From: Minisyncoccia bacterium
Lineage (GTDB): Bacteria > Patescibacteriota > Minisyncoccia > Phycocordibacterales > PALSA-1337
Direction of reading: 5' to 3'
Assembly (NCBI GenBank): GCA_049997795.1
Contig: JBEKVT010000002.1
Span: forward strand, 1,664-65,663
Length of the DNA stretch: 64,000 nt
The notes beneath the pieces were generated by a model, which saw nothing but the letters and a program-made list of their open reading frames with translations, ran no database searches and was not told the DNA's origin. Positions 5,552 through 64,000 of the stretch are shown here, piece by piece. The stretch's first letter is position 1, and each line of letters begins with the position of its first letter. The position numbers were made by a program, and so were the translations under genes.

Positions 5552-6145
5552 ATGATGTTCACGATCGCCGGCCTCGGCAATCCCGGAAAGGAATACGAAG
5601 GCACCCGCCACAACAGCGGGCGGATCATCCTCGACCACATCCGCAAAGAGTGGGACGGCGAGTTCGAACCAGATAAGAAGCTGAATGCGCTAGTCTCGGA
5701 AGTAAAGATCGGCAAGGAGAAAGCGACGCTCGTGGCCCCGGACACCTTCATGAACAATTCCGGCAAGGCCATCGGGAAGCTCATCAAGAATGAGAAGGCC
5801 GCCGAGAAGCTCGTCGTCATCTACGATGATTTCCAGTTGCCGCTAGGCCGCATGAAGATATCTTTCAATAAGAGCGCCGGCGGCCATCGCGGCCTCGATT
5901 CGGTCATCAAGGCCGTGAAGACCGAAGCCTTCACGCGCATCCGGATCGGCACGGCTCCCGCGAATTCGAAAGGCGAAGCCAAAGTGCCGCACGGCGACGA
6001 AAAGATCAATAAGTTCATACTGGGTAAGTTCAAGCCGGATGAATTAAAAACCATCAAGAAAGTCGCCAAGAGAGCCGCCGAAGCCGTCGAAATGATCGTC
6101 AAAGAGGGCAGGGAAAAGGCTATGAGCGTGTTCAATCAAGCGTAG
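5552..6145 (+). CDS. pth: Peptidyl-tRNA hydrolase
   Basis: GLGNPGKEYEGTRHNSG N-terminal signature of Pth. Confidence 0.9.
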   Translation: MMFTIAGLGNPGKEYEGTRHNSGRIILDHIRKEWDGEFEPDKKLNALVSEVKIGKEKATLVAPDTFMNNSGKAIGKLIKNEKAAEKLVVIYDDFQLPLGRMKISFNKSAGGHRGLDSVIKAVKTEAFTRIRIGTAPANSKGEAKVPHGDEKINKFILGKFKPDELKTIKKVAKRAAEAVEMIVKEGREKAMSVFNQA

Positions 6146-6153
6146 TCTGATAA

Positions 6154-6264
6154 GAAAACAAACACATACCTAAAAGAACATTCCCAGCGGGAGCCCACTG
6201 GGAATGTTTTTCTTCAGCTAGAACTCTCGCTTAAGTGGGGTTCTTTTAGGTATGTGTTTGTTTC
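6154..6264. repeat. Palindromic intergenic element, family copy a (reverse orientation); probable bidirectional terminator between convergent pth and rpsA
   Basis: Arms GAAAACAAACACATACCTAAAAGAAC / GTTCTTTTAGGTATGTGTTTGTTTCC (about 23 bp perfect); core CCACTTAAGCG...CCCGCTGGGAATGTTC in reverse complement; right arm ends 1 nt from rpsA stop. Confidence 0.7.
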
Positions 6265-7533
6265 CTAGCTCTTCTCCCCAGCGTACGCCAGGGCCATCTT
6301 CTGCTCTTTCGGGTCGAAAAGGGCGATCTTGAAGGGATAGGTCTTGCCGAGCTCCAGGACCTTTCGGAGCTTCTCTTCGGAGCCGAATTCGGAGACGTGC
6401 ACCAGGCCGGCCACGCCCTCCTCGATCGAGGCCAGGGCGCCGTGCTTGTTGAACTTGATGATCACGCCGGAGACAGGCATGTCCTTCTTGTACTTCTTGC
6501 CGGCCTCGATCCAGGGATTGGGCCGGAGCTGCTTGATGGAGAGGGACACCTTGCCGTCCTTGATCTCGATGATCTTGGCCTTGATCTTCTGACCGGTCTT
6601 GACGAAGTTGCGCGGATCGTCCACCAGACCCCAGTCGATCTCCGAGATGTGGACCAGGCCCTCGAGGCCCTCTTCCAGCTTGACGAAGACGCCGAAATCG
6701 ACCGCGCCCGTGACCACGCCCTCGACTTCGTCGCCGATCTCGTATTTGCTGACGATCTTCTCCTTCTCTTTGTGCTCCAGGCCCTTCTCGGAGAAGATGA
6801 GCTTGCCTTCCTTCGGGTCGGCGGTGATGATCGAGACCTGGAGGCGCTCCCCGACCAGTTTCCGGAGCTCTTCCAGGATTTTATCCTTGTCGCCGTCGGA
6901 GACCCGCGGATAATGGTCGGTCTTCAGCTGGGAAGCCGGCAGGAAGCCGACGATGCCCTGCCATTCCATGAGCAGGCCGCCCTTGTTCGCTTCTTTGACG
7001 AGGAGGTCGAGGACGCGCTTCTCCTTGATGGCCGCTTCGGCCTCGCTCCAGATCAGGGCTTGCCTGGCCTCTTTCAAGGACAGCTCGTAATAGCCGTCTT
7101 TGTGGGCGTCATCGACGATCTTGGCGGCCACGACGTCGCCGACATTCACCTTCTTGATGACGTCGCGGGCCACGATGTATTCGCGGCCGTATATGATGCC
7201 GGTGCCGAAAGGCGCGAGGTCCACGTAGACCGAGGCCTTGTCCACCGCGATGACCGGCCCCTCGACGAGGTCGCCCACTTGAGGCGGATTCTTCATGGCC
7301 GTGATGAAAGGCGCCATGGCGCTGGCTTTTTGGGCGTCGGAGAGCTCAAGCTCGCCGTTCTTCTTGCCGATCGTTCCGGCGGCCTTCCCGGCCTTCTTCT
7401 CGGCCTTTTTATTCGTTTGTTCTCCGGCTGTCTCTTCGGGATGCTTCCCGGTCTGTTTCTTCGGGACCAGGCCTTCCGTGTCGGGACCCGGGCTCTTGGT
7501 CCCGGTCAAAGTCTCTTTTAATCTTTTGAACAT
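6265..7533 (-). CDS. rpsA: 30S ribosomal protein S1 (4 S1 domains, short form) with Lys/Ala-rich N-terminal region
   Basis: Repeated S1-domain patterns (GDVVAAKIVD, GDEVEGVVTGAVDFGVFVKL, GQKIKAKIIEI, VSGVIIKFNKHGALASI). Confidence 0.85.
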   Translation of the reverse strand: MFKRLKETLTGTKSPGPDTEGLVPKKQTGKHPEETAGEQTNKKAEKKAGKAAGTIGKKNGELELSDAQKASAMAPFITAMKNPPQVGDLVEGPVIAVDKASVYVDLAPFGTGIIYGREYIVARDVIKKVNVGDVVAAKIVDDAHKDGYYELSLKEARQALIWSEAEAAIKEKRVLDLLVKEANKGGLLMEWQGIVGFLPASQLKTDHYPRVSDGDKDKILEELRKLVGERLQVSIITADPKEGKLIFSEKGLEHKEKEKIVSKYEIGDEVEGVVTGAVDFGVFVKLEEGLEGLVHISEIDWGLVDDPRNFVKTGQKIKAKIIEIKDGKVSLSIKQLRPNPWIEAGKKYKKDMPVSGVIIKFNKHGALASIEEGVAGLVHVSEFGSEEKLRKVLELGKTYPFKIALFDPKEQKMALAYAGEKS

Positions 7534-14254: not shown

Positions 14255-14692
14255 ATGAAACACGCTCTCTTCATCGCATCGCTTCTCGTCCTTCTCGGTC
14301 CGTTCGCCGCGCCGACCGTCCTGGCCCAGGTGCCGGAAGCCAACATAAACAACGCCAGCTTCCGTCTCGTCATCTGCGATGGACCGGCTCTGCCGGCGAA
14401 CGTCCCGCCGCCGACAACTGACTACGTCCCTTGTGACTTCCAGCATCTCATGATAGAGGCCCAATACCTGATCAACGTCATGATAATCCTCGGCACACTC
14501 GGAGCCTTGATAGGCTTCGCTTACGCCGGCTATCTCTACATAACCGGCACCCAGCCGAATCTGGCCAAGGCCAAGGGCATATTTCCAAAGGTCTTCTGGG
14601 GGTTTATACTGATGCTGACCGCCTGGTTCATCGTCTATCAGATCCTCTCTTGGCTGACCGGGAACGCCGCGACGTATCTCGGCGGCTCGTAA
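14255..14692 (+). CDS. Pilin-like paralog P1: signal peptide + two C-terminal TM helices (VirB2/TrbC-like architecture); 2 Cys in exposed region
   Basis: SP MKHALFIASLLVLLGPFAAPTVLAQV; C-terminal FWGFILMLTAWFIVYQILSWL. Confidence 0.6.
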   Translation: MKHALFIASLLVLLGPFAAPTVLAQVPEANINNASFRLVICDGPALPANVPPPTTDYVPCDFQHLMIEAQYLINVMIILGTLGALIGFAYAGYLYITGTQPNLAKAKGIFPKVFWGFILMLTAWFIVYQILSWLTGNAATYLGGS

Positions 14693-14696
14693 TCAC

Positions 14697-15125
14697 ATGA
14701 AGAACATCCCGATGAAGAATCTCATTTATACCTTGGCTCTGGCCGTTTTGCTCGTCGGGGCTGCTCAATCCGCGAACGCCGATATCCAATCGGGGAACCC
14801 GAGCGGCACCTTCTCCCTTCAAAACCCTCTGCAATTCACGACCGTCGGCGACCTCATCAACGGCTTCCTGCAGATATTCTCATATGTGGCCGTCCTGTTC
14901 GCCGTCCTGATGCTAGTCTGGGTCGGCCTGCAATTCGTCCTGGCCAGGGGCAACCCCGAACGCATGAAAGTGCTGAAAAACTGGCTCCTGTGGATCGTCA
15001 TCGGGGCGGCCATCGTGATCGGCGCCAGGATCATCGTCTCGGTCGTCATAAACACCCTAGGCTCGACAGGCGCGGTCAACCAGAATATCCTGAATAGCGC
15101 CAATAACGCCCTCAATAAGCCGTGA
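14697..15125 (+). CDS. Pilin-like paralog P2 (SP + two TM helices)
   Basis: SP ...LALAVLLVGAAQSANA; helix pair FSYVAVLFAVLMLVWVGLQF / WLLWIVIGAAIVIGARIIV. Confidence 0.6.
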   Translation: MKNIPMKNLIYTLALAVLLVGAAQSANADIQSGNPSGTFSLQNPLQFTTVGDLINGFLQIFSYVAVLFAVLMLVWVGLQFVLARGNPERMKVLKNWLLWIVIGAAIVIGARIIVSVVINTLGSTGAVNQNILNSANNALNKP

Positions 15126-15164
15126 GACCTCTTGGCCGATTAACAGCCGTTTAAAAACATAACC

Positions 15165-15554
15165 ATGAAGAAAAAGCTCATCGTGTTTGCCTCCGTCCTC
15201 CCGTTCATCTTGCCGACCGTGGTTCAAGCTCAAACCCCCGTCGCTCTCAATTGTGATCCGAAGACATTATGCTATGTCGTGAGCCAGGTCATCGCGTACC
15301 TGAACCTGGCCTTGAGCTTGCTGATGGCGGTGGCCATCGTCATGTTCGTGTGGTACGTGATCAAGTATTACATCAGGCCCAACGAGGAGCGCAAACAAGC
15401 CGGACTATACGTCATGTACAGCATCATCGGCTTTTTCGTCATCCTGTCCATCTGGGGCATCATCAACATCCTCGGCAGCACCTTCGGTCTGGGGAACGCC
15501 GGCAACCAGCAAAAGAGCTGGAGCAGCTTCGTCAATCTCTTCCCGCAGCAATGA
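15165..15554 (+). CDS. Pilin-like paralog P3 (SP + two TM helices, Cys pair)
   Basis: C-terminal YSIIGFFVILSIWGIINILGSTFGLGNAGNQ shared with P4. Confidence 0.65.
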   Translation: MKKKLIVFASVLPFILPTVVQAQTPVALNCDPKTLCYVVSQVIAYLNLALSLLMAVAIVMFVWYVIKYYIRPNEERKQAGLYVMYSIIGFFVILSIWGIINILGSTFGLGNAGNQQKSWSSFVNLFPQQ

Positions 15555-15589
15555 AATATTATGATCGACCATAACCGATACACACTATC

Positions 15590-15913
15590 ATGATGCAAGT
15601 CACGGACGTCAATTCACTGTTCTACAAGCTGAATGGGATCGGCAACGCCGTGACCATTCTGCTCGTCTCGCTCGCGGTCATCTGGATAGTCGTCTCCGTC
15701 GTGCGTTTCATCATGGCGAGCGGGGAGAACCGGGCCGTTCACCGGGCTTCCGTCCTTTGGGGCATCGTCGGTCTAGCCGTCATCCTGTCCATCTGGGGCA
15801 TCATCAACATCTTCGGGCGCACTTTTGGACTGGGAAATGCCCAGAATCAATGGCGATCTTCGAGGGACGCGAACAGCCTGATCATGACGCCTCCGGTATC
15901 GCCATTCCAGTAA
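15590..15913 (+). CDS. Pilin-like paralog P4, no signal peptide (possible silent or truncated copy)
   Basis: Starts directly in mature-like region VTDVNSLFYKLNGIGNAV; shares 33-nt identical block gtcatcctgtccatctggggcatcatcaacatc with P3. Confidence 0.5.
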   Translation: MMQVTDVNSLFYKLNGIGNAVTILLVSLAVIWIVVSVVRFIMASGENRAVHRASVLWGIVGLAVILSIWGIINIFGRTFGLGNAQNQWRSSRDANSLIMTPPVSPFQ

Positions 15914-16015
15914 TCCACAGCCAGCGCTTCTTTTTAGAGGCGATATCGGCTATAATCCGGATGGCTACAAGTGATTTTAACAGTCGTCATTAACCAATCA
16001 TCCATCAGCATTATC

Positions 16016-16378
16016 ATGAAAAAGCTCATAGCATCGCTCGCGGTCCTGACCCCGTCGGTCGCCTTCGCCGCCCAGCCGATCACTGACGTCAACTCGCTGA
16101 CCCAGAAGCTGACCGGCATCGGCAATACCGTGATCGGCATCCTGATCTCGCTCGCGGTCATCTGGATCATCTGGAACGTCGTCTCTTTCATCATCCACGC
16201 CGACAATCCGGAGAAGCGCGGCGAGAGCGGCAAGGCCATCCTTTGGGGCGTCGTCGGCCTGTTCGTCATCCTGTCCATCTGGGGCCTGGTCAACATCCTG
16301 ACCGGCACGTTCAGCACCAATACCCAGGCGCCGGTCCAGAACTACCCGGTCAATCCCAATCCGCCGATAGTCCAGTGA
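16016..16378 (+). CDS. Pilin-like paralog P5 (SP + two TM helices)
   Basis: MKKLIASLAVLTPSVAFAAQPITDVNSLTQKLTGIGNTV...; TATAAT at about 15945. Confidence 0.65.
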   Translation: MKKLIASLAVLTPSVAFAAQPITDVNSLTQKLTGIGNTVIGILISLAVIWIIWNVVSFIIHADNPEKRGESGKAILWGVVGLFVILSIWGLVNILTGTFSTNTQAPVQNYPVNPNPPIVQ

Positions 16379-16391
16379 CCGAATAGCCAGC

Positions 16392-16643
16392 GTGGCTTCC
16401 CCGTTCTTCAAGGCCATAAACCCGATCATCACCAACGTGGTCAATCCGCTGGTGTGGCTGGCTTTCGCCGTGGCCTTCGTCGTCTTCGCCTACGGGGTCG
16501 TCCAGATGATCACTCACGAAACGGACGCGGAGGCCCACAAGCGGGGAAGATGGAGCATCTTGAGCGGCATAATCGGCATGTTCATCATGTTCTCGGCCTG
16601 GGGCATCATCAATATCGTCGCCAACACGGTCAAGTCGCTTTGA
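16392..16643 (+). CDS. Pilin-like paralog P6, minimal two-helix unit, GTG start, no signal peptide
   Basis: 83 aa; WSILSGIIGMFIMFSAWGIINIV matches family C-terminal consensus. Confidence 0.5.
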   Translation: MASPFFKAINPIITNVVNPLVWLAFAVAFVVFAYGVVQMITHETDAEAHKRGRWSILSGIIGMFIMFSAWGIINIVANTVKSL

Positions 16644-22510: not shown

Positions 22511-23209
22511 ATGAGCGCGAACTTCGAATCATTGGCGGAACATATCGGCGTCGATTTCGACGATATCTCGCTCCTTAGAGCCGCCTGCACCCACCGCTCT
22601 TACTTGAACGAGAACAAAGGCGCCGGCCTGGAGCACAATGAGCGCTTGGAATTCCTGGGCGACGCGGTCCTCGAGCTTGTCACGACAAGCTTCCTCTTCC
22701 GCAAATACCCGAAAAAATCGGAAGGGGAGCTGACCGCCTTCCGCTCGGCCATCGTCAATACGGTCTCTCTTACCAAGGTGGCGGAGCGCATCGGCCTGGA
22801 CGGCTTCATCCTCTTGTCCAAAGGCGAGGCCAAAGACACCGGCCGGGCCCGTTCGGTCATCATCGCCAACGCCGTCGAAGCCGTTATCGGCGCCATATAC
22901 ATCGACAAAGGATACGACGCCGCGGCCAATTTCATCTCCGATCACGTCCTTTACGTCATCGACATCGAGAATATCGTCGAGAACAAGTCCTGGCTCGACG
23001 CCAAGAGCCATTTCCAGGAGGCGGCCCAAGAAAAAGCCGGGGCCACGCCGACCTACCGGACTCTGAAAGAGACCGGCCCTGACCACGACAAGCACTTCGT
23101 CTTGGGCGTGTTCCTCGGCGACGTCCAAATAGCGACGGGGAGCGGCGCTTCGAAGCAGGAAGCCGAGCAGATGGCGGCCAAGAAGGCGCTCGAGGTCAAG
23201 GGTTGGTAG
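22511..23209 (+). CDS. rnc: Ribonuclease III
   Basis: ERLEFLGDAVLELVTT signature, C-terminal dsRBD. Confidence 0.9.
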   Translation: MSANFESLAEHIGVDFDDISLLRAACTHRSYLNENKGAGLEHNERLEFLGDAVLELVTTSFLFRKYPKKSEGELTAFRSAIVNTVSLTKVAERIGLDGFILLSKGEAKDTGRARSVIIANAVEAVIGAIYIDKGYDAAANFISDHVLYVIDIENIVENKSWLDAKSHFQEAAQEKAGATPTYRTLKETGPDHDKHFVLGVFLGDVQIATGSGASKQEAEQMAAKKALEVKGW

Positions 23210-23211
23210 CG

Positions 23212-23324
23212 GAACGGGAGAACATGCCTCTGAATGACATTCCCAGCGGGAGTTCGTCTGGGATATTTTCCTTTAGCCTTGGATCCGAATAAGTGGAGTC
23301 ATTCGGGGGCATGTTCTCCCGTTC
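23212..23324. repeat. Palindromic intergenic element, family copy b (reverse orientation), between rnc and smc
   Basis: Arms GAACGGGAGAACATGCC / GGCATGTTCTCCCGTTC; core in reverse complement TCCACTTATTCGG...CCCGCTGGGAATGT. Confidence 0.7.
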
Positions 23325-23346
23325 TGCGATACGCTATAATTCACTC

Positions 23347-25611
23347 GTGAACCTAAAATCCCTGGAATTGTCTGGCTTCAAGTCGTTCGCCAAGAAGGCG
23401 ACGCTTCATTTTAGCTCGCCGATAACCGGCATCGTTGGGCCCAACGGCTCCGGCAAATCGAACGTGGCCGAAGCCTTCCAGTTCGTCCTGGGCGAGCAAT
23501 CCATCAAGTCCCTGCGGGGCAAGCGCGGCGAAGACCTCATCTGGAACGGCGGCGGGAATGCCCCGGCCGGCACAGGCCGGGCCAACCGGGCCGGGGTCAA
23601 GCTCACCTTCGACAATTCGCGGCGGATGTTCCCGGCCGTGGACTTCGACGAGGTGGCCGTCGAGCGCGTCGTCCACCGCGATAACCTGAACGAATACATA
23701 TTGAACGGCAGCCAGGTTCGCCTGAAAGACATCGTCGAGATCCTCTCCGGCGCCCACATCGGCGCGACGGGCCATCACATCATCTCCCAAGGCGAAGCCG
23801 ACCGCATCCTGTCCGCCTCCATAAGAGAGCGGCGCGAGATGATCGAGGACGCCTTGGGCCTCAAGATCTACCAATGGAAGAAGCTCGAGAGCCTCCGAAA
23901 GCTCGAGCGGACCGACGAGAACATGAAGCAGGTCGAGTCGTTGCGCCGGGAGATCGCTCCTCACCTCAAGTTCCTTAAGAAGCAAGTCGAAAAGATCGAA
24001 AAGGCCGAATCGATGCGCTCAGAGCTCATCTCCCTGTACAAAGAATATTTTGGGAGGGAAGAGCGCCGCCTGAAGGCGGAAAGGGAGAGGCTGGAGCGCG
24101 GCTTGGCTGGGCCGAAGAAGGAACTGGCTGAGCTCGACCACGGCCTGGAGAAAGCCAAAGAAACCTTGACGGCTTCGAAGAACAAGGATCATAAGAGCGA
24201 CGAGATAGTGGCTCTCGAAGGCAAGCTTGCCGGCATCCGCGCCGAGAAAGACGCAGTCACCCGAAAGCTGGGACGCCTCGAAGGCGAGATGAACGCCGAC
24301 AAGAGAGCCATCGAGAAGGAGAAAGAGAGGCAGAAGAGGGACGAGTTCAAGACGGTCTATCTGAAGGATCTCGAGGAAGTCGTGGCCAAGATCGAATCCT
24401 TTGAGTCCATCACCGAAGCCGGCAGATTATTCTCTGAAACCATCGGCCTGCTTAAGGCATTTATCGCCAAGCACCGCGGCGCGCCGGATTCTTCCTTGGT
24501 CGGCGAGGCGGAAAGGGAGATCGAGGCGCTCTCCAAAGAAAGGTCTGGTCACGAAGAGAGGCTCGAAGCTCTCAGCGCTTCCGAATCGGAGGTTTCGGCC
24601 GAGTACGACAGCCTGAAGAAAGCCATCGAGAAAGAGAAAGACACCGACCGGGACGCCGAGAAAGACGTCTTCAGGATCATCGCCAGGCAGAACGAGGTAC
24701 GGGCCGTCGTCTCGAGCCTTTCCACGGAGCTCGACGCCGTCGGACGCGACGAGGCGGCCATGAAACGCGAACTCGGCGAAGCCGGTTCGATAGCCGGGCG
24801 GCAAGCCCTGGATTACGCCGGCACGGCGGCGCCGGCCGGAGAAGCGAAGGAAGTCCAGGAAGAGAGGAAGAAGAGGATCGAGAAGCTCAAGATCCGCCTG
24901 GAGGACGCCGGCGGCGGCGATCTCGAGGTCATGAAGGAATACAAAGAAACCGAGGAGCGGGACGCCTTCCTCGGACGCGAGCTCGGAGATCTCGACAAGG
25001 CCGGCAAGGAATTGAGGCAGCTCGTCGCCGATCTCGAGACGCGGATAGATTCGGAATTCAAGAGCGGCGTATCGAAGATCAACGCCGAGTTCCAGAAGTT
25101 CTTCACGCTGATGTTCGGCGGAGGTAGGGCGGAGCTCTACGTCGTCAAGGAGCCGAAACGCCGCAAGAGGAGCGAGACGGAAGAGCTCGGGGAAGCCCTA
25201 TCCAGCGGCGAGGAGGAACTGGGAAAAGGCGAGGATGAAGACGAAGAAGAAGGCCCTGAAGGCCTGGAGATAGACGTCAGCCTCCCCAGGAAGAAAGTGA
25301 AAGGCCTGATGATGCTCTCCGGCGGCGAACGGGCCCTGACCTCGATCGCCCTTCTCTTCGCCGTCTCCCAAGTCAATCCGCCGCCTTTTATCGTCCTCGA
25401 CGAGACTGACGCGGCCCTCGACGAGGCCAACTCGAGGAAATACGGCGACATGATCAAGGACCTTTCCAAGCGCTCCCAGCTCATCTTGATCACCCACAAT
25501 CGGGAGACGATGTCTCGGGCCGGCGTCCTCTACGGCGTCACTATGGGAAGCGATGGGGCGTCGAAGCTCCTTTCGATCGCCTTCGAAGAGGCGGTACGAG
25601 TGGCGAAGTAA
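23347..25611 (+). CDS. smc: SMC-family ATPase, short (754 aa) hinge-less form in conserved rnc-smc position
   Basis: N-terminal VNLKSLELSGFKSF...GPNGSGKSN Walker A; C-terminal LSGGERALTSIALLFA signature, FIVLDETDAALD Walker B; GTG start 6 nt after TATAAT (23335-23340); start is my choice (the track's 23293 start lies in the palindrome). Confidence 0.8.
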   Translation: MNLKSLELSGFKSFAKKATLHFSSPITGIVGPNGSGKSNVAEAFQFVLGEQSIKSLRGKRGEDLIWNGGGNAPAGTGRANRAGVKLTFDNSRRMFPAVDFDEVAVERVVHRDNLNEYILNGSQVRLKDIVEILSGAHIGATGHHIISQGEADRILSASIRERREMIEDALGLKIYQWKKLESLRKLERTDENMKQVESLRREIAPHLKFLKKQVEKIEKAESMRSELISLYKEYFGREERRLKAERERLERGLAGPKKELAELDHGLEKAKETLTASKNKDHKSDEIVALEGKLAGIRAEKDAVTRKLGRLEGEMNADKRAIEKEKERQKRDEFKTVYLKDLEEVVAKIESFESITEAGRLFSETIGLLKAFIAKHRGAPDSSLVGEAEREIEALSKERSGHEERLEALSASESEVSAEYDSLKKAIEKEKDTDRDAEKDVFRIIARQNEVRAVVSSLSTELDAVGRDEAAMKRELGEAGSIAGRQALDYAGTAAPAGEAKEVQEERKKRIEKLKIRLEDAGGGDLEVMKEYKETEERDAFLGRELGDLDKAGKELRQLVADLETRIDSEFKSGVSKINAEFQKFFTLMFGGGRAELYVVKEPKRRKRSETEELGEALSSGEEELGKGEDEDEEEGPEGLEIDVSLPRKKVKGLMMLSGGERALTSIALLFAVSQVNPPPFIVLDETDAALDEANSRKYGDMIKDLSKRSQLILITHNRETMSRAGVLYGVTMGSDGASKLLSIAFEEAVRVAK

Positions 25612-25674: not shown

Positions 25675-26433
25675 ATGGAGTCTCTCTCGAAACAGCAAAT
25701 GATACTCCTTGCCCTCTTGGTGTCTTTCGTGACCTCTCTCGCCACGGGCATCACCACGGTCTCGCTCATGGACCAGTCGCCCAATATGACGAGGACCATC
25801 ACCCAGGTCATACAGCAGACCGTTTCAGGGCTATCGACCGGCGGGGCATCTTCGACAGCCGCCGTGGCCATAGCCGTGAATGACGAAGTTGCTGACGCCA
25901 CTGCCTCGATCGAGCCTTCCATCGTCCGCTTGCGCGACGGAGACAGCGGTCCGGTCGTGGGCTTGGGCCTCATCGTCTCCGGATCGGGGGCCATCATGTC
26001 CGACAAGGATCTGACCGATACCCTCAATTCGCCGGAGGCGGTCTTCCCGAACGGTACTTCCGTGCCGATCGCCGTGGCCCGCTTCCAGATAAACGGCGAC
26101 GTGGCCTTCCTCGTCCCGACCAGGTCCATCTCGATCTCCATGAGGCCGATCGTCTTCGGCTCCGCGGCCCGTCTCGGCGCCTCGCTTTGGTCCTTGACCG
26201 GCACATCCACTTATACCTTGTCGCAAGGCATCGTGACCGAGCTCGTCCCGATCTCCGGATCCGAGCTTTCGTCGATACGCACCTCGATCGTCGCTCCCAA
26301 GATGCTTCCTGGCACGCCGCTCTTCGACGCCACGGGCGCAGTCATAGGCATGGCTACCACCGGTTCGCTTTCAGGCAGCCAAGGCGCTTCATTCTATCCG
26401 ATCCAGGAAGTTAGGACCGCCGTGCCGAGATGA
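25675..26433 (+). CDS. Membrane-anchored trypsin-like (HtrA/S1-family-like) protein, catalytic Ser apparently absent
   Basis: PGTPLFDATGAVIGMATTG aligns to HtrA NPGNSGGPLVNxxGEVIGINT but lacks GNSGG Ser. Confidence 0.5.
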   Translation: MESLSKQQMILLALLVSFVTSLATGITTVSLMDQSPNMTRTITQVIQQTVSGLSTGGASSTAAVAIAVNDEVADATASIEPSIVRLRDGDSGPVVGLGLIVSGSGAIMSDKDLTDTLNSPEAVFPNGTSVPIAVARFQINGDVAFLVPTRSISISMRPIVFGSAARLGASLWSLTGTSTYTLSQGIVTELVPISGSELSSIRTSIVAPKMLPGTPLFDATGAVIGMATTGSLSGSQGASFYPIQEVRTAVPR

Positions 26434-26440
26434 GCCGAAA

Positions 26441-26541
26441 AGGATATGTCTTGAAAGAACTCCACTTATTCGGCTTTTGTGCCTAAAGAAAGCGTCTCAA
26501 CCTACTGATCCCGCTGGGAATGTTCTTTCAAGGCATATCCT
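26441..26541. repeat. Palindromic intergenic element, family copy c (forward)
   Basis: Arms AGGATATGTCTTGAAAGAAC / GTTCTTTCAAGGCATATCCT (20 bp perfect); core TCCACTTATTCGG...ATCCCGCTGGGAATGTTC. Confidence 0.7.
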
Positions 26542-26580
26542 TGTCGGCTCTTCATTCACGGCCGTCCCGCACCGCCGGAT

Positions 26581-26609
26581 TTGATTCCGGCGTATTTTTG
26601 TAGTAATAT
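26581..26609 (+). promoter_or_regulatory. Candidate clpB promoter TTGATT-17-TAATAT, 13 nt before ATG
   Basis: Seen in sequence; no CIRCE element recognised. Confidence 0.4.
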
Positions 26610-31832: not shown

Positions 31833-31988
31833 ATGTCGCAGGACCAACTCATCCAATTGCGAAACAAGGAGACCGGCGAGGTCTATTGGACGCGCAAGAA
31901 CAAGAAGAAGGTGGAGCGCAAGATCGAGCTCAAGAAATATTCGGCCAGGCTCCGTAAGCACGTCGTCTTCAAAGAATCCAAGAAATAA
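31833..31988 (+). CDS. rpmG: 50S ribosomal protein L33
   Basis: MSQDQLIQLRNKETGEVYWTRKNKKKVERKIELKKYSARLRKHVVFKESKK; below track length cutoff. Confidence 0.8.
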   Translation: MSQDQLIQLRNKETGEVYWTRKNKKKVERKIELKKYSARLRKHVVFKESKK

Positions 31989-31990
31989 TC

Positions 31991-32105
31991 GCAGGAAAGG
32001 AAGTGCTTCTGAAGAACTCCTCTTTACATCCCGCTTTAGGCTGAAGGCAAGGGTCATCGGACGTATCCCGCTGGGAATGTTCTTCAGAAGCACTTCCTTT
32101 CCTGC
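31991..32105. repeat. Palindromic intergenic element, family copy d (forward), 27-bp perfect arms
   Basis: GCAGGAAAGGAAGTGCTTCTGAAGAAC ... GTTCTTCAGAAGCACTTCCTTTCCTGC; core ends ATCCCGCTGGGAATGTTC. Confidence 0.7.
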
Positions 32106-32128
32106 TATACTTCTCGTGTTCCTTAGAT

Positions 32129-32199
32129 GGGCGATTAGTTAAGTGGCATAACTGCGGTCTCCAAAACCGCTGTCGGGGGTTCGATTCCCTCATCGCCCG
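32129..32199 (+). tRNA. tRNA-Trp (anticodon CCA)
   Basis: GGGCGATTAGTTAAGTGGCATAACTGCGGTCTCCAAAACCGC...GGGGGTTCGATTCCCTCATCGCCCG. Confidence 0.8.
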
Positions 32200-32204
32200 C
32201 AATA

Positions 32205-32231
32205 AAAAGAGCGGACAGAAGTCCGCTCCAT
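32205..32231 (-). terminator. Terminator for minus-strand PRTase gene (GAGCGGAC...GTCCGCTC hairpin + U-run on minus strand)
   Basis: Seen in sequence. Confidence 0.45.
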
Positions 32232-32238
32232 AGTGACG

Positions 32239-32940
32239 CTATCCGGCGTCAGAAACCGGTTCTTTGCGCGACGTCAGAGCGTTTAGACCCCGTCGCTCCA
32301 GGAATTCGCGGCCCTTGCCGACATGCGGGTTGACGGGAATCCCTTGTTTGCACAGAGGGCACTCGGATTCAGGCCAGTGGGCGGAACTCAACTTGACGTT
32401 CGCCAGCGAGACCAGCTCCGGCACGTCGCCAATGTCTGCGGCCGTGATACCGCCGGAATTCACCAGAGCCGCGGCGCCGATGACATGGCCGCCCCTCCGT
32501 CTCACGGCTTCGACGACCGTTCTGACGATATTGCGGCCGTCGGACAGGATATCCTCGACCACCAACACCTGCTTATTCCGGATCAACTTGTCATAATCGA
32601 GCCCGGGAATGAACAGATCTTGATCGATTTTTTCGGTGTGCATGGCTAAAACCTGGTGCTTCGTAAGCTCGCTCAAGTGGAATGCTGTCCACTGCGCGAG
32701 GATAGAGCCGTCGGTGCCATGGCCGATGACTACCCAGACGTTATCGCCCATGAACTTCTTGGCGATCTCCATGCACAGGCTGGAGGTTTGGATGGGGTGC
32801 GAGTATATCGCATCCCTGTTAACGTAAGAGTTTTCATGCAGGCGAGGGGAACTGACGATGTGATCGTCGATGATCATGGCGTTGAGCCATTTGAGGGTAG
32901 CGATCACCCTCTGTTCCAATTCAGGATCGTGTAGCTTCAT
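32239..32940 (-). CDS. Type I phosphoribosyltransferase (OPRT/PyrE-like)
   Basis: VLVVEDILSDGRNIVRTV PRPP-binding motif; start taken at MKLHD. Confidence 0.6.
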   Translation of the reverse strand: MKLHDPELEQRVIATLKWLNAMIIDDHIVSSPRLHENSYVNRDAIYSHPIQTSSLCMEIAKKFMGDNVWVVIGHGTDGSILAQWTAFHLSELTKHQVLAMHTEKIDQDLFIPGLDYDKLIRNKQVLVVEDILSDGRNIVRTVVEAVRRRGGHVIGAAALVNSGGITAADIGDVPELVSLANVKLSSAHWPESECPLCKQGIPVNPHVGKGREFLERRGLNALTSRKEPVSDAG

Positions 32941-61521: not shown

Positions 61522-64000
61522 ATGGCCGGAATCGCTAAGAAGCCGACGCGCGACGGCGATAAGATCGTCGTCAAGGGCGCACGCACCCATAACTTGAAGA
61601 ACATAACGGTCGAGATGCCGCGGAACGCCATGATCGCCGTGACCGGCTTGTCCGGCTCCGGCAAATCGTCGCTCGCGTTCGACACCATCTTCGCCGAAGG
61701 CCAGCGCCGCTACGTGGAATCGCTGTCCGCTTACGCCCGCCAGTTCCTGCATAAGCTCCAGAAGCCGGACGTCGACGAGATCTCCGGCCTGTCGCCGGCC
61801 ATCTCCATAGACCAGAAGTCCCGGTCGAACAACCCGCGCTCGACCGTGGCCACCATCACGGAGATCTACGATTACCTGCGAGTCCTTTTCGCCAGGGTCG
61901 GCAAGCCTCACTGCCTCGTCTGCGGCAGAGAGATCCACCGGATCTCGAAGGAAGAGATACTCGAGACGGTCCTCCATACGGTCACGGCCCAATCCACGCG
62001 GGCCAAGAAAGTCTTCGGGGTCGGCATCGACAGCGCTAAGGTCAGAGTCTACGCGCCCGTGGTGGTCGGCCGGAAAGGGGAGTATTACCAGCTGCTCTAC
62101 GACCTTCTCGGCAAGGGCTACGACCGGGTGCGCATAGACGGCAAGATCCACCGCCTGCGCGACCGGATAATCCTCGAGAAGAACAAGAAACACTCGATAG
62201 ATGTCCTGGTCGACGAGCTTTTTATAAGCGAGTTCAACGACAAGAAGCAGTCCGACAACGCCCGCGAGCGCCTGTCCGAGGCCTTGGAGCAGGCCATTCA
62301 TGAGGCCGACGGCCTGATTCGGCTGGAATACCCCGGGGAAGAGAAGCTTCTGTCTGTCAGATTCATGTGCCCTTACGACGGCTTCTCCTATCCGGACGTC
62401 GAACCGCGCCTATTCTCGTTCAATTCCCCTTACGGGGCCTGTCCGGCCTGCAACGGCCTAGGCACGGAGAGCATATGGAGCGACAAGCCGTGCCCGGTCT
62501 GCAAGGGCGGGCGCCTGCGCGAAGAGGCTCTGCACGTCATCGTGGACGGCAAGAACATCGTCGACGTGGCAGCCCTGTCCATAGAACGCGCCGTCGATTT
62601 CTTCAAGGACATCAAGCTCTCCGACGCAGAGAAGGAAATAGCCAAAGTGGTCTTGAAGGAGATCGACGCCCGCCTCTCGTTCATGGTCAACGTCGGCATA
62701 GAATACCTGACCCTGGACCGCCGGGCCGGCACTCTCTCGGGCGGGGAAGCCCAGCGCATCAGGCTGGCTTCCCAATTGGGTTCCGGCCTGGTCGGCGCTC
62801 TTTACGTCCTGGACGAGCCGACCATCGGCCTCCATCAGAAGGACAACAGCAGGTTGATCGGGACGTTGCTCCATCTCAGGGATCTCGGTAACACCATCCT
62901 CATCGTCGAGCACGACGAAGACACCATGTTCTCGTCCGATTATATCGTTGACATCGGGCCTGGAGCCGGCATCCATGGCGGCAGAGTGGTCGTCTCCGGC
63001 TGGCTCGACGAATTGCTGACGGCCAAGAAGAATCCGTCGGGCTCGCTCACCCTGGCCTATCTGCGCGGCGAGAAGAAGATAGATATGCCGGAGAAGCGCC
63101 GCGAGCCGAAAGGTAAGCTTATGATCCGCGGCGGCCGAGTCTTCAACATCAAAGATATGGACGTGGACGTGCCGCTCGGGTCGTTCAACGTCATCACCGG
63201 CGTCTCCGGCTCCGGCAAATCGTCTCTCATGCATGAGATCATATACCGGAACCTTGAAGCCAGGTTGGGCTTGCGGTACCGCTCGGCCGAGACGGTCAAT
63301 TGCCGGTCCTTCACCGGCAGCGAATATCTCGGCCGGGCCGTTTTCATAGACCAATCGCCGATCGGCCGGACCCCGCGCTCCAATCCAGTGACTTACACCG
63401 GCGCCTGGACGCATATCCGGGACCTCTTCGCGGCCGAACCGGAAGCTCGCGCCAGGGGCTGGGGTCCCGGCCGTTTCTCTTTCAACCGCCCCGGCGGCCG
63501 CTGCGAGGCCTGCGAGGGGAACGGCGAGATAGCCGTGGAGATGCATTTCCTGCCGACCGTCTACGTGACCTGCGACGTCTGCGGCGGCAAGCGCTTCACC
63601 AAGGAGACGCTCGACATACGGTACCGCAAGAAGAGCATCCATGACGTCCTGGAGATGACCATCGAGGAGGCCCTCGGCTTCTTCGAGGACATCCCGGCGG
63701 TCTATGACCGCCTACGGACGCTCTACGAGGTCGGCCTCGGCTACCTGAAGCTCAGCCAATCGGCCACCACTCTCTCCGGCGGCGAAGCCCAGCGCGTCAA
63801 GATCTCGGCGGAACTCTATCGGGCCCACGTCCAGAAGACCATATACCTCCTCGACGAGCCGACGGTCGGCCTGCATTACGAGGACGTCAAGAAGCTCCTC
63901 GACATCCTGCAGAGGCTCGTCGACAAGGGCAACACCGTTGTGGTCATCGAGCACAACCTGGACGTCATCAAGAACGCCGACCACGTCATCGACGTCGGAC
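61522..64000 (+). CDS. uvrA: Excinuclease ABC subunit A (partial; runs off window end)
   Basis: MAGIAKKP...GLSGSGKSSLAFDTIFAEGQRRYVESLSAYARQFL; zinc-finger CxxC pairs; second ABC module GVSGSGKSSL. Confidence 0.9.
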   Translation, partial: MAGIAKKPTRDGDKIVVKGARTHNLKNITVEMPRNAMIAVTGLSGSGKSSLAFDTIFAEGQRRYVESLSAYARQFLHKLQKPDVDEISGLSPAISIDQKSRSNNPRSTVATITEIYDYLRVLFARVGKPHCLVCGREIHRISKEEILETVLHTVTAQSTRAKKVFGVGIDSAKVRVYAPVVVGRKGEYYQLLYDLLGKGYDRVRIDGKIHRLRDRIILEKNKKHSIDVLVDELFISEFNDKKQSDNARERLSEALEQAIHEADGLIRLEYPGEEKLLSVRFMCPYDGFSYPDVEPRLFSFNSPYGACPACNGLGTESIWSDKPCPVCKGGRLREEALHVIVDGKNIVDVAALSIERAVDFFKDIKLSDAEKEIAKVVLKEIDARLSFMVNVGIEYLTLDRRAGTLSGGEAQRIRLASQLGSGLVGALYVLDEPTIGLHQKDNSRLIGTLLHLRDLGNTILIVEHDEDTMFSSDYIVDIGPGAGIHGGRVVVSGWLDELLTAKKNPSGSLTLAYLRGEKKIDMPEKRREPKGKLMIRGGRVFNIKDMDVDVPLGSFNVITGVSGSGKSSLMHEIIYRNLEARLGLRYRSAETVNCRSFTGSEYLGRAVFIDQSPIGRTPRSNPVTYTGAWTHIRDLFAAEPEARARGWGPGRFSFNRPGGRCEACEGNGEIAVEMHFLPTVYVTCDVCGGKRFTKETLDIRYRKKSIHDVLEMTIEEALGFFEDIPAVYDRLRTLYEVGLGYLKLSQSATTLSGGEAQRVKISAELYRAHVQKTIYLLDEPTVGLHYEDVKKLLDILQRLVDKGNTVVVIEHNLDVIKNADHVIDVG

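What the first reader, a model, noticed from the sequence alone, without database searches (positions are those of the whole stretch)
31991..32105. Four-member family of 100-115 bp intergenic palindromic elements with conserved core and covarying perfect arms
Copies sit at 6154-6264 (between convergent pth and rpsA), 23212-23324 (rnc|smc), 26441-26541 (protease-like|clpB) and 31991-32105 (rpmG|tRNA-Trp). Each has outer inverted-repeat arms of 17-27 bp that are perfectly complementary within a copy but differ in sequence between copies (27/27 bp in copy d). Only the arm ends are shared: ...AGAAC on the left, GTTCT... on the right. The ~60-nt core is conserved. It starts TCCACTTATTCGG (13/13 identical in b and c, CCACTTAAGCG in a) and ends ATCCCGCTGGGAATGTTC (16-18 nt identical in all four). 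Copies a and b are in reverse orientation, c and d forward. All are strictly intergenic and begin 3-10 nt after a stop codon. Arms that stay perfectly complementary while diverging between copies argue for selection on the hairpin itself. Candidate roles are a structured RNA, a REP/BIME-like terminator or mRNA-stabilising element, or a small mobile palindrome. Conventional MITEs conserve the terminal repeats instead, so this looks distinct.
Basis: seen in the sequence. Interest (0 to 1): 0.8.

Follow-up and report, generated by a model that had tools for sequence, protein, structure and literature searches.

The report
Hairpin repeat element in a Patescibacteria genome
Four diverged copies of a roughly 120-base hairpin-forming repeat sit just after genes in a tiny-genome (Candidate Phyla Radiation) bacterium and are missing from the same sites in relatives, so it is most likely a small non-coding mobile element of a broadly familiar kind, though not a member of any described family.

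Summary
The window contains exactly four copies: a 6153-6266 (-), b 23209-23327 (-), c 26429-26553 (+) and d 31988-32108 (+). Each has 27-32 nt inverted arms around a 59-61 nt asymmetric core. These are the four best inverted repeats in the window. A fifth copy lies in a Candidatus Taylorbacteria MAG (L001).

The arms are not unrelated between copies. Where they align they are about 65-76% identical, yet 90-97% complementary within a copy. Twenty of 29 stem pairs show changes on both sides.

The core keeps three boxes, including an invariant 15-mer, TCCCGCTGGGAATGT. No Rfam family matches.

The host is a Patescibacteria/Paceibacterota bacterium. Four of the five sites could be compared with relatives, and the element is absent from all four. 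The fifth, site a, was not compared.

Copy c lies between a stop codon and a conserved canonical terminator, so the element is not itself the terminator. I found no target-site duplication, no transposase in about 93 kb of the genome, no GTAG tag and no attC features.

Best reading (confidence about 0.55): a low-copy, non-autonomous mobile hairpin element, similar in kind to Correia elements and REPINs. It is probably co-transcribed into 3' UTRs or operon junctions, where its stem would be a plausible RNase III substrate.

The closeness to stop codons is explained by the very short spacers. Interest is moderate.

The parts
6153..6266 (-). Copy a. On the + strand the arms are 6153-6179 and 6240-6266 and the core is 6180-6239. 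The invariant 15-mer lies at 6178-6192 on the - strand. The copy fills the gap between the convergent genes pth (stop 6143-6145) and rpsA (stop 6265-6267, overlapped by the arm).
   Evidence: Model R1 scores 104.9 bits. The arms pair at 26 of 27 positions, with one G:T on the rpsA-sense strand. An extra internal hairpin lies at 6174-6211 (I10).
23209..23327 (-). Copy b, in reverse orientation between rnc (stop 23207-23209) and smc. The arms are 23209-23238 and 23298-23327 and the core is 23239-23297. The invariant 15-mer lies at 23237-23251 on the - strand.
   Evidence: R1 scores 117.6 bits. The arms pair at 27 of 30 positions, and all three exceptions are G:T on the + strand, which is the rnc/smc sense strand. 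A TATAAT box at 23335-23340 and the likely true smc start, GTG at 23347, follow the element.
26429..26553 (+). Copy c, between the Trypsin_2-like protease gene (stop 26431-26433, overlapped by the arm) and clpB. The arms are 26429-26460 and 26522-26553 and the core is 26461-26521. The invariant 15-mer lies at 26509-26523.
   Evidence: R1 scores 123.4 bits. The arms pair at 29 of 32 positions. The site is empty in L017, L018, L029 and L030.
31988..32108 (+). Copy d, the flagged copy, between rpmG (stop 31986-31988) and tRNA-Trp (32129-32200). The perfect 27-bp arms are 31991-32017 and 32079-32105 and the core is 32018-32078. The invariant 15-mer lies at 32066-32080.
   Evidence: R1 scores 127.5 bits and the fold is -64.1 kcal/mol. 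The site is empty in L018, which has only a 13-bp hairpin there.
26573..26592 (+). A canonical intrinsic terminator (CGCCGG-loop-CCGGCG followed by TATTTTTG), downstream of copy c and upstream of clpB. It is context rather than part of the element. It shows that copy c sits inside the 3' UTR.
   Evidence: The same stem and T-tract are conserved in L018.
32083..32111 (+). A predicted promoter for tRNA-Trp (TTCAGA, 17 nt, TGcTATACT). The -35-like hexamer and the TG of the extended -10 lie inside the right arm of copy d.
   Evidence: The TGCTATACT box is conserved at the empty site in L018. This is a consensus match only, and function is inferred.
22511..23209 (+). rnc (RNase III), the enzyme I infer would cut the 27-34 bp RNA stems. 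It is a candidate partner only and has not been shown to act on the element.
   Evidence: Pfam Ribonuclease_3 plus dsrm domains. The inference rests on the RNase III-substrate hairpins of Correia elements (PMC2649163).

Best explanation
This is a low-copy, non-autonomous, hairpin-forming mobile element of Paceibacterota (Patescibacteria). It has an asymmetric core of about 60 nt carrying three conserved boxes: CYCCWCTT, GCYNAARGR and the invariant TCCCGCTGGGAATGT. The core is enclosed by inverted arms of about 30 nt.

Copies land in the very short non-essential spacers between a stop codon and the next promoter, terminator or convergent stop codon.

I infer that propagation depends on the hairpin, probably as single-stranded DNA or RNA, together with a trans-acting protein that reads the conserved box at the base of the loop. 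Only lineages whose arms stay complementary would then keep spreading, which would produce arms that covary between copies. Replication template-switching may also repair imperfect palindromes.

Once inserted, the element is probably co-transcribed with the upstream gene as a 27-34 bp double-stranded RNA stem. That stem would be a plausible RNase III substrate, so it could uncouple or destabilise neighbouring cistrons.

Shown: the family exists, the arms covary, the site is empty in relatives at four of the five loci, and the position relative to genes and signals is as described.

Inferred: mobility, its mechanism, the protein that reads the box, co-transcription and RNase III processing.
For: 1. 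There are four copies in the window and a fifth in another genus, from a different habitat. That fifth copy is L001, from a Candidatus Taylorbacteria MAG from Lac Pavin.
2. Four of the five insertion sites could be compared with relatives, and all four are empty.
   - Sites b, c and d are empty in L017 and L018, which keep the gene order nusB-rnc-smc-protease-clpB-alr(-L33).
   - Site c is also empty in L029 and L030. The protease-clpB gap there is 83-94 nt or 11 nt, against 189 nt in the window.
   - The L001 site is empty in the window's own genome (L107, 22 nt gap) and in the closest relative of L001 (L109, 41 nt gap).
   - Native stop codons and C-termini are kept on both sides of these comparisons.
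3. Arm covariation is strong. Twenty of 29 pairs show changes on both sides, and 88% of cells are paired against 44-54% for slid controls, with 0 of 500 shuffles reaching the observed value. Arms are 90-97% complementary within a copy but only about 65-76% identical between copies where they align.
4. The arms of b resemble those of L001, while the core of L001 resembles that of c, with which it shares a 16-mer. The arms are therefore part of the element and not host hairpins.
5. Both orientations occur relative to the host genes.
6. Copy c lies between a stop codon and a conserved canonical terminator, so it would be transcribed as 3' UTR.
7. The genome encodes RNase III.
8. Precedents exist. 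Correia elements have inverted repeats around a characteristic core, make promoters at their ends and form RNase III hairpins (PMC2649163). REPIN hairpins show compensatory changes (PMC3116915). Quasipalindromes are converted to perfect repeats by template switching (PMC7202029).
Against: - No target-site duplication is visible at any of the five junctions.
- No transposase, RAYT or integrase was found in the Pfam scan of 30 ORFs at 32-64 kb or in the precomputed Pfam lists for gene calls covering window about 3-33 kb and the two extensions. About 93 kb of the genome was examined in this way. Several ORFs there have no Pfam hit, and ORFs at window 1-3 kb were not examined.
- No full-length parent element with the same arms was found.
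- Only five copies are known, so no excision or new insertion has actually been seen.
- The relatives used as empty sites are fairly distant: 85-89% ClpB identity, and 83-90% for the sigma-like protein next to L001. Absence there could also mean loss.
- The population sampled in 20 contigs is clonal, at 99.96-100% identity, with every element fixed and unchanged. There is therefore no polymorphism within the species.
- Stem transition mismatches lean toward G:U on the sense strand, 5 against 1. This hints at constraint at the RNA level rather than at the level of transposition, but the one-sided p is about 0.11.
Confidence: 0.55

Rival explanations
1. A cis-acting RNA hairpin selected by the host, not currently mobile. 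Each copy would be a 3' UTR or operon-junction module, acting as a processing site, an insulator between convergent or tandem genes, or a stabiliser. RNA-level selection would maintain the stem, and the conserved boxes would bind a host RNA-binding protein.
For: - The arms covary.
- Five of the six transition mismatches are G:U on the sense strand of the upstream gene. These include all three in copy b, which is inverted relative to the other copies.
- The 15-mer is invariant across two genera.
- The copies lie where they would be transcribed, and copy a sits between convergent genes that have no other terminator.
Against: - The element is absent from the same gene junctions in all six relatives examined, although gene order, stop codons, promoters and a terminator are conserved there.
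- The flanking genes are functionally unrelated.
- Both orientations of the asymmetric core occur.
- The core has no consistent fold or covariation.
- The G:U bias is not significant (p about 0.11).
Confidence: 0.2
2. A DNA-level recognition site rather than an RNA or a transposon. It could be a folded recombination site of the integron attC type, or a binding site for a site-specific recombinase or a nucleoid or segregation protein. In that case the protein would recognise the structure and the short boxes.
For: - Like attC, the stem sequence varies while the structure is kept, short AAC...GTT motifs are conserved, and the element lies directly after ORFs.
- The box TCCC-GCT-GGGA is a small palindrome, as seen directly in the sequence.
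Against: - The conserved AAC/GTT motifs are at the inner ends of the stem, not the outer ends.
- The motifs are RRRAAC/GTTYYY, not RYYYAAC/GTTRRRY.
- The flanking genes are core housekeeping genes (rpsA, pth, rnc, smc, clpB, rpmG), not cassettes.
- No integrase was found in about 93 kb.
- The copies are scattered rather than arrayed.
Confidence: 0.08
3. A family of independently transcribed small RNA genes. Each would be a long-stem RNA of about 120 nt with a conserved loop, carrying out a trans function.
For: - The folds are very stable, with z about -9 to -11.
- The loop boxes are conserved across genera.
- Several diverged paralogues occur in one genome.
Against: - No promoter-like site precedes any copy. 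The only predicted promoter points out of copy d toward tRNA-Trp.
- The stems begin inside or next to the stop codon of the upstream gene.
- No Rfam family matches, apart from generic hairpin noise far below threshold.
- The element is absent from relatives.
- The core shows no covarying structure.
Confidence: 0.07
4. Transcription terminators made of unusually long hairpins.
For: - The copies lie directly after stop codons.
- The 3' arm is pyrimidine/U-rich on either strand.
- Copy a is the only structure between two convergent genes.
Against: - This genome uses ordinary terminators with a short GC stem and a T-tract, for example at 26573-26592, 32229-32208, 30192-30167 and 29511-29487.
- One of these lies downstream of copy c and is conserved at the empty site in L018.
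- No T-tract follows the stems.
- The empty sites for L001 have no terminator at all, with only 22-41 nt between the genes.
Confidence: 0.05

Closest known systems
Correia repeat enclosed elements (CREE/nemis) of Neisseria
   Same: - Both are about 105-155 bp, with inverted repeats of about 26 nt enclosing a characteristic asymmetric core.
- Both are intergenic, occur in either orientation and are present or absent between strains or species.
- In both, an end of the element can contribute promoter hexamers (here the -35-like TTCAGA in copy d).
- When transcribed, the repeats form hairpins that RNase III binds or cuts (PMC2649163).
   Different: - CREE repeats are conserved in sequence and the elements are abundant, at least about 90-100 per gonococcal genome in PMC2649163. 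They are flanked by a TA target duplication, and some carry an IHF site.
- Here the arms are only about 65-76% identical between copies but covary. No duplication is seen.
- Copy density is low, at four in about 93 kb.
- There is no sequence similarity, and the host phylum is unrelated.
REPINs (REP doublets forming hairpins) mobilised by RAYT/TnpA-REP
   Same: Both are non-autonomous hairpin units of about 70-110 nt. In both, hairpin-forming ability is preserved by compensatory changes, and the hairpin is thought to be needed for mobility. Neither has terminal duplications (PMC3116915, PMC8266576).
   Different: - REPINs are symmetric. Their most conserved 16-mers sit at the two outer ends, and the REP units carry GTAG or CGTC tags (PMC3733652).
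- REPINs occur in tens to hundreds of copies alongside a RAYT gene.
- Here the conserved boxes are inside the loop and are asymmetric, and there is no consistent tag.
- No RAYT gene was found in the 93 kb examined.
ERIC/IRU elements of enterobacteria (comparison from my own knowledge, not tested here)
   Same: Both are imperfect palindromes of about 127 bp in transcribed intergenic regions. Both occur in either orientation, are low to moderate in copy number, are patchy between species and fold into long RNA hairpins.
   Different: The sequences are unrelated. In ERIC the conserved part is the central inverted repeat.
Integron attC sites
   Same: Both are 57-141 bp imperfect palindromes placed directly after ORFs. 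In both the structure is conserved while the sequence varies, with short AAC...GTT motifs.
   Different: The conserved motifs of attC are at the outer ends (RYYYAAC and GTTRRRY), and attC sites lie in cassette arrays next to intI. None of this applies here.

Membership tests
Classical MITE (DDE-transposon derivative; the Correia element is an example) | Terminal inverted repeats conserved in sequence among copies | tested here: not met
   Arms are only about 65-76% identical between copies where they align, although they are homologous.
Classical MITE (DDE-transposon derivative; the Correia element is an example) | Direct target-site duplication flanking each copy (TA for Correia elements) | tested here: not met
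   The flanks of all five copies were inspected, and no shared or per-copy direct repeat was seen. The comparison of L001 with its empty sites in L107 and L109 shows no duplication.
Classical MITE (DDE-transposon derivative; the Correia element is an example) | A parent IS with matching ends, or a transposase gene in the genome | tested here: inconclusive
   No transposase domain was found in the Pfam scan of 30 ORFs at 32-64 kb or in the precomputed Pfam lists for the other gene calls. About 93 kb was examined in total. The remaining roughly 560 kb of the contig could not be read.
Classical MITE (DDE-transposon derivative; the Correia element is an example) | Presence or absence at orthologous sites | tested here: met
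   Sites b, c and d and the L001 site are empty in relatives. Site a was not compared.
REP / REPIN | GTAG or CGTC tetranucleotide tag at one end of the palindrome | tested here: not met
   Only copy b is preceded by GTAG, and that is the rnc stop-codon context. Copies a, c, d and L001 lack the tag. The feature is defined in PMC3733652.
REP / REPIN | Symmetric doublet whose most conserved sequence is at the outer ends, present in high copy number | tested here: not met
   The conserved boxes are inside the loop and are asymmetric. There are four copies in about 93 kb.
REP / REPIN | Cognate RAYT (TnpA-REP) gene in the genome | tested here: inconclusive
   None was seen in the 93 kb examined.
Integron attC | R''/R' boxes (RYYYAAC and GTTRRRY) at the outer boundaries, within a cassette array next to intI | tested here: not met
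   The AAC/GTT motifs lie at the inner stem ends, with purines and pyrimidines reversed. The neighbours are housekeeping genes, and no integrase was found.
Intrinsic (Rho-independent) terminator | Short GC-rich stem followed directly by a T-tract | tested here: not met
   The terminator scan does not call any of the four elements. It does call a canonical terminator downstream of copy c.
Any Rfam RNA family | Score at or above the family's gathering threshold | tested here: not met
   Only tRNAs reach threshold in the window. In the permissive search of copies b, c and d, the best matches are miRNA-precursor models at 20-30 bits against thresholds of 63-118.
RNase III-processed hairpin (functional analogy with Correia elements) | Cleavage of the transcribed stem by RNase III | not testable with these tools
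   The stems have 27-34 bp and an rnc gene is present. No transcript data were available.

The most novel reading that the evidence does not exclude
The element could be a previously undescribed kind of hairpin mobile element specific to Candidate Phyla Radiation bacteria. It would spread without target duplication and without a conventional transposase. A conserved loop box would be read by an unknown protein, and the two arms would be kept complementary either by re-templating one arm from the other or by strict structural selection. The element could double as a mobile RNase III processing module that reshapes operon expression in these minimal genomes.
Probability: 0.15. Interest if true: 0.7.

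Novelty: new variant of a known kind. Interest (0 to 1): 0.42.

Why it matters
Patescibacteria have very small, tightly packed genomes, and two full-text literature searches found no description of a repeat element of this kind in them.

A low-copy hairpin element that slips into spacers of 3-30 nt between genes would show that even these genomes tolerate selfish or regulatory DNA. The covarying arms would be a clean natural example of selection for, or repair of, palindromic structure.

If the stems are cut by RNase III, each insertion would rewire the coupling between neighbouring genes, including rnc itself. The practical benefit is small: a covariance model for annotating these elements, and a marker of recent genome change in Paceibacterota.

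It does not open a long-standing question.

Tried and rejected
- **Rfam.** The gathering scan of the whole window and permissive scans of copies b, c and d gave only tRNAs and generic miRNA-hairpin noise.
- **Pattern scans of public collections.**
  - The genome-contig scan gave one real copy (L001) and four chance hits.
  - Two metagenome-contig scans gave 0 and 71 hits. All 71 were chance matches to the 19-mer, with no arms.
  - Two viral scans gave only chance hits.
  - blastn against phages found nothing.
- **Insertion into pre-existing host hairpins.** Rejected. The arms of b and L001 are homologous across genera. Site c has no hairpin between the stop codon and the terminator in relatives. 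The L001 empty sites are 22-41 nt with no hairpin. Only site d has a small 13-bp hairpin in L018.
- **Inverted duplication of target DNA to make the arms.** There is one weak A-rich resemblance between L109 and L001, and nothing at the other sites.
- **Stop-codon targeting.** The distances from the stop are 0-4 nt, but the pre-insertion spacers are only about 3-20 nt. My hand-calculated combined test gives p of about 0.2.
- **Coding potential.** The short ORFs that start in the left arm are 2, 13 and 38 codons long and are not conserved.
- **tRNA-derived core, DNA-uptake sequence, group II intron domain V, an IHF site and single-strand origins.** I considered each by eye against remembered consensus sequences, and none fits.
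- **Within-population polymorphism.** Twenty contigs of the same species are 99.96-100% identical, and the elements are unchanged.
- **Solo cores or fragments.** None were found in 0.9 Mb of fetched DNA.
- **Failed look-up.** The look-up of the ORF at window 62458-63642 failed, so I obtained no sequence directly beyond the window's end. Separately, the P0140 look-up gave L107, 21 kb starting about 7 kb past the window's end.

Full report
**1. What is in the sequence**

Reading the four stated places and scanning the window for inverted repeats shows that the four best inverted repeats in the 64 kb are exactly the four claimed copies:
- a: 6153-6179 / 6240-6266
- b: 23209-23238 / 23298-23327
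- c: 26429-26460 / 26522-26553
- d: 31988-32017 / 32079-32108

The arms are 27-32 nt long and 90-97% complementary, with 59-61 nt between them. Copy d has a perfect 27-bp stem.

When all copies are put in one orientation (a and b reverse-complemented), the loop aligns well. It starts GAAC-YCCWCTT, has a central GCYNAARGR box, and ends with TCCCGCTGGGAATGT followed by GTTC. That 15-mer is invariant in all copies.

Each copy folds at -58 to -64 kcal/mol, with z-scores of -8.8 to -10.8. A covariance model built from the copies, an HMM of the core and short-word blastn find no further copy or fragment in the window.

**2. Host and the search for more copies**

The window is part of JGI contig Ga0427927_000007 (657 kb) from peat metagenomes. 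Its ClpB and a sigma-like protein place it in Patescibacteria/Paceibacterota, near Candidatus Taylorbacteria. One source labels it Minisyncoccia.

A pattern scan of one genome per GTDB species returned one real extra copy. It is L001 5604-5733, in a Candidatus Taylorbacteria MAG from Lac Pavin, and it has 34-nt arms. Two scans of JGI metagenome contigs and two of viral contigs gave only chance matches to the short box.

Extending the genome by 8 kb upstream (L035) and by a further 21 kb stretch (L107) added no copy. That makes four copies in about 93 kb. Twenty contigs of the same population from other samples are 99.96-100% identical, with the elements unchanged.

A hairpin in a relative (L015 19053-19167, among tRNA genes) has similar arms but an unrelated core. 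It may be a distant cousin.

**3. The arms**

In fact most arm pairs align over 25-30 nt at about 65-76% identity, although a/b and one arm each of a/d and b/c did not align. The termini are similar (GCAGRAA...). The arms of b resemble those of L001, while the core of L001 resembles that of c. The arms therefore belong to the element.

Within a copy the arms are 90-97% complementary. On the five-sequence alignment, 20 of 29 stem pairs have changes on both sides. Paired cells make up 88%, against 44-54% when the partners are slid by 1-3 columns, and 0 of 500 shuffles reach the observed covariation.

If the two arms of each copy had evolved independently, that much divergence between copies would leave only about 70-75% complementarity (my estimate). 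Something therefore keeps the arms matched.

There are six transition mismatches. Five read as G:U on the sense strand of the upstream gene, including all three in the inverted copy b, and one reads as A:C. This hints at RNA-level tolerance but is not significant (one-sided p about 0.11).

**4. Position relative to genes and signals**

- *Stop codons.* The left end of each copy lies from 2 nt inside to 4 nt after the stop codon of the adjoining gene, and 7 nt after the pth stop on the far side of copy a.
  - Relatives end these proteins at the same residue, so the stop codons are native.
- *Downstream signals.* The other end of each copy is 0-19 nt from the next signal:
  - a TATAAT box 6 nt before the likely true smc start;
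  - an extended -10 box in front of tRNA-Trp;
  - a TATAAT box before the DUF8128 gene in L001;
  - the pth stop codon;
  - for copy c, a canonical intrinsic terminator at 26573-26592 that is conserved in L018.
- *What this implies.* The genome has ordinary terminators, and copy c sits upstream of one, inside a 3' UTR.
  - The pre-insertion spacers were only about 3-30 nt, so closeness to stop codons needs no targeting. A rough hand-calculated combined test gives p of about 0.2.

**5. Presence or absence in relatives**

- L017 and L018 (ClpB 85% identical) keep the gene order nusB-rnc-smc-protease-clpB-alr, and L018 also has L33. Neither has an element.
- Their protease-clpB gaps are 93-94 nt, against 189 nt in the window.
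- The gap from L33 to tRNA-Trp in L018 is about 50 nt and holds only a 13-bp hairpin.
- The rnc-smc junction holds a different small gene in each of the two relatives.
- L029 (89%) and L030 (88%) also lack copy c.
- The L001 site is empty in the window's own genome (22 nt between the genes, L107) and in L001's closest relative (41 nt, L109).
- Site a could not be compared.
- Thus four of five copies are lineage-specific insertions between otherwise conserved features. These relatives are not very close, so loss cannot be strictly excluded.

**6. What it is not**

- No Rfam family matches.
- It is not an attC site. The conserved AAC/GTT motifs lie at the inner ends of the stem, the neighbours are housekeeping genes, and no integrase was found.
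- It is not a GTAG- or CGTC-tagged REP (PMC3733652).
- It is not a classical MITE, because it has no target duplication and its terminal repeats are not conserved in sequence.
- It is not a terminator.
- It is not coding.
- No transposase-like domain appears in the 30 ORFs scanned at 32-64 kb or in the precomputed Pfam lists for the other gene calls examined.

**7. Most likely explanation**

The combination below fits a non-autonomous mobile hairpin element:
- several diverged copies in one genome;
- a copy in another genus;
- empty orthologous sites;
- both orientations;
- an asymmetric core with invariant boxes;
- arms that covary.

The nearest analogues are Correia elements and REPINs. Correia elements have inverted repeats enclosing a characteristic core, contribute promoters at their ends and form RNase III hairpins (PMC2649163). 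In REPINs, hairpin-forming ability is preserved by compensatory changes and is thought to be needed for mobilisation (PMC3116915).

I infer that the invariant box at the base of the loop is the recognition site of an unidentified protein, and that only lineages with intact hairpins propagate. Template switching at quasipalindromes, which makes imperfect repeats perfect (PMC7202029), could add to arm matching without any selection.

Once inserted, the element would be co-transcribed as a 27-34 bp double-stranded stem. The genome encodes RNase III, and copy b lies right after rnc. Cleavage and uncoupling of neighbouring cistrons is therefore a reasonable but untested consequence.

The right arm of copy d also supplies a -35-like hexamer and the TG of the extended -10 for tRNA-Trp. 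This is a consensus match only.

**8. Rivals**

The main rival is a host-selected cis-acting RNA hairpin. The G:U trend and the invariant box favour it. The empty orthologous sites, the unrelated flanking genes, the two orientations and the lack of a consistent core fold count against it. A DNA recombination or binding site, an independent small RNA gene and a long-hairpin terminator are less likely, for the reasons given above.

**9. Novelty and score**

The general kind, a short palindromic intergenic repeat, has long been known. This family matches none of the described families, and it fails the defining tests for MITEs, REPs and attC.

Two full-text searches found no description of such elements in Patescibacteria.

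I rate it a new variant of a known kind, of moderate interest (0.42). A more novel reading is a hairpin mobile element with an unknown, transposase-independent mechanism that doubles as a mobile RNase III module. The data do not exclude it, but I give it only about 15%.

Noticed in passing
window 23335-23349; L107 11051-11064; L109 2922-2935; L001 5744-5757: TATAAT boxes lie only 6 nt upstream of start codons. One precedes the likely true smc start, GTG at 23347. Another precedes the DUF8128 gene and is conserved in three genera. This suggests leaderless mRNAs driven by (extended) -10 promoters in this lineage. In the window TATAAT-N5-7-RTG occurs 3 times, against 0.64 expected.
   Followed up: partly
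window 23293-23349: The public gene call for smc starts at 23311, inside the right arm of element b. The conserved SMC N-terminus (VNLKSLELSGFKSF) starts at GTG 23347, so the annotated start is probably 12 codons too early.
   Followed up: partly
window about 14255-16643 (L006 1745-4133): There is a tandem array of small genes with T4SS_pilin/TrbC-like Pfam hits (four consecutive, plus one with a weak hit), preceded by one small gene with no hit.
   Followed up: no
L017 6466-6831 and L018 6245-6562 (rnc-smc junction in relatives): The rnc-smc junction is variable. One relative carries a 23S_rRNA_IVP-family gene there, another carries an HTH_3 gene, and the window genome carries element b. It looks like a hot spot for insertions.
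   Followed up: no
L016 20646-20731: A different palindromic element occurs in a relative. It has 28-nt arms, TTGTCATCCCCGCGAAGGCGGGGATCCA / TGGATTCCCGCCTTCGCGGGAATGACAA. From memory, the ATTCCC-N8-GGGAAT pattern recalls neisserial dRS3/REP-type repeats.
   Followed up: no
L017 5585-5702: A 48-nt inverted repeat built from TAAACCC/TAAATCC heptamer-like units lies between nusB and rnc in a relative.
   Followed up: no
L015 19053-19167: A hairpin with 30-nt arms and a 55-nt core lies between tRNA-Ala(cgc) and tRNA-Pro genes in a relative. Its arms resemble the family (R1 29.9 bits) but its core is unrelated. It may be a sister family that shares the arms.
   Followed up: partly
L023, L027, L028 (contig ends near window 31987-32383): Several short assemblies of this population end at or shortly after rpmG and element d. 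This is consistent with the repeat or hairpin breaking assemblies.
   Followed up: no
window 6174-6211: Copy a carries an extra internal 18-nt inverted repeat, AAGAACATTCCCAGCGGG / CCCACTGGGAATGTTTTT. In other words, a mirror image of the conserved box replaces part of the core. Copies b and d keep weaker versions (ATATCCCAG and ACATCCC). The ancestral element may have been more symmetric.
   Followed up: partly
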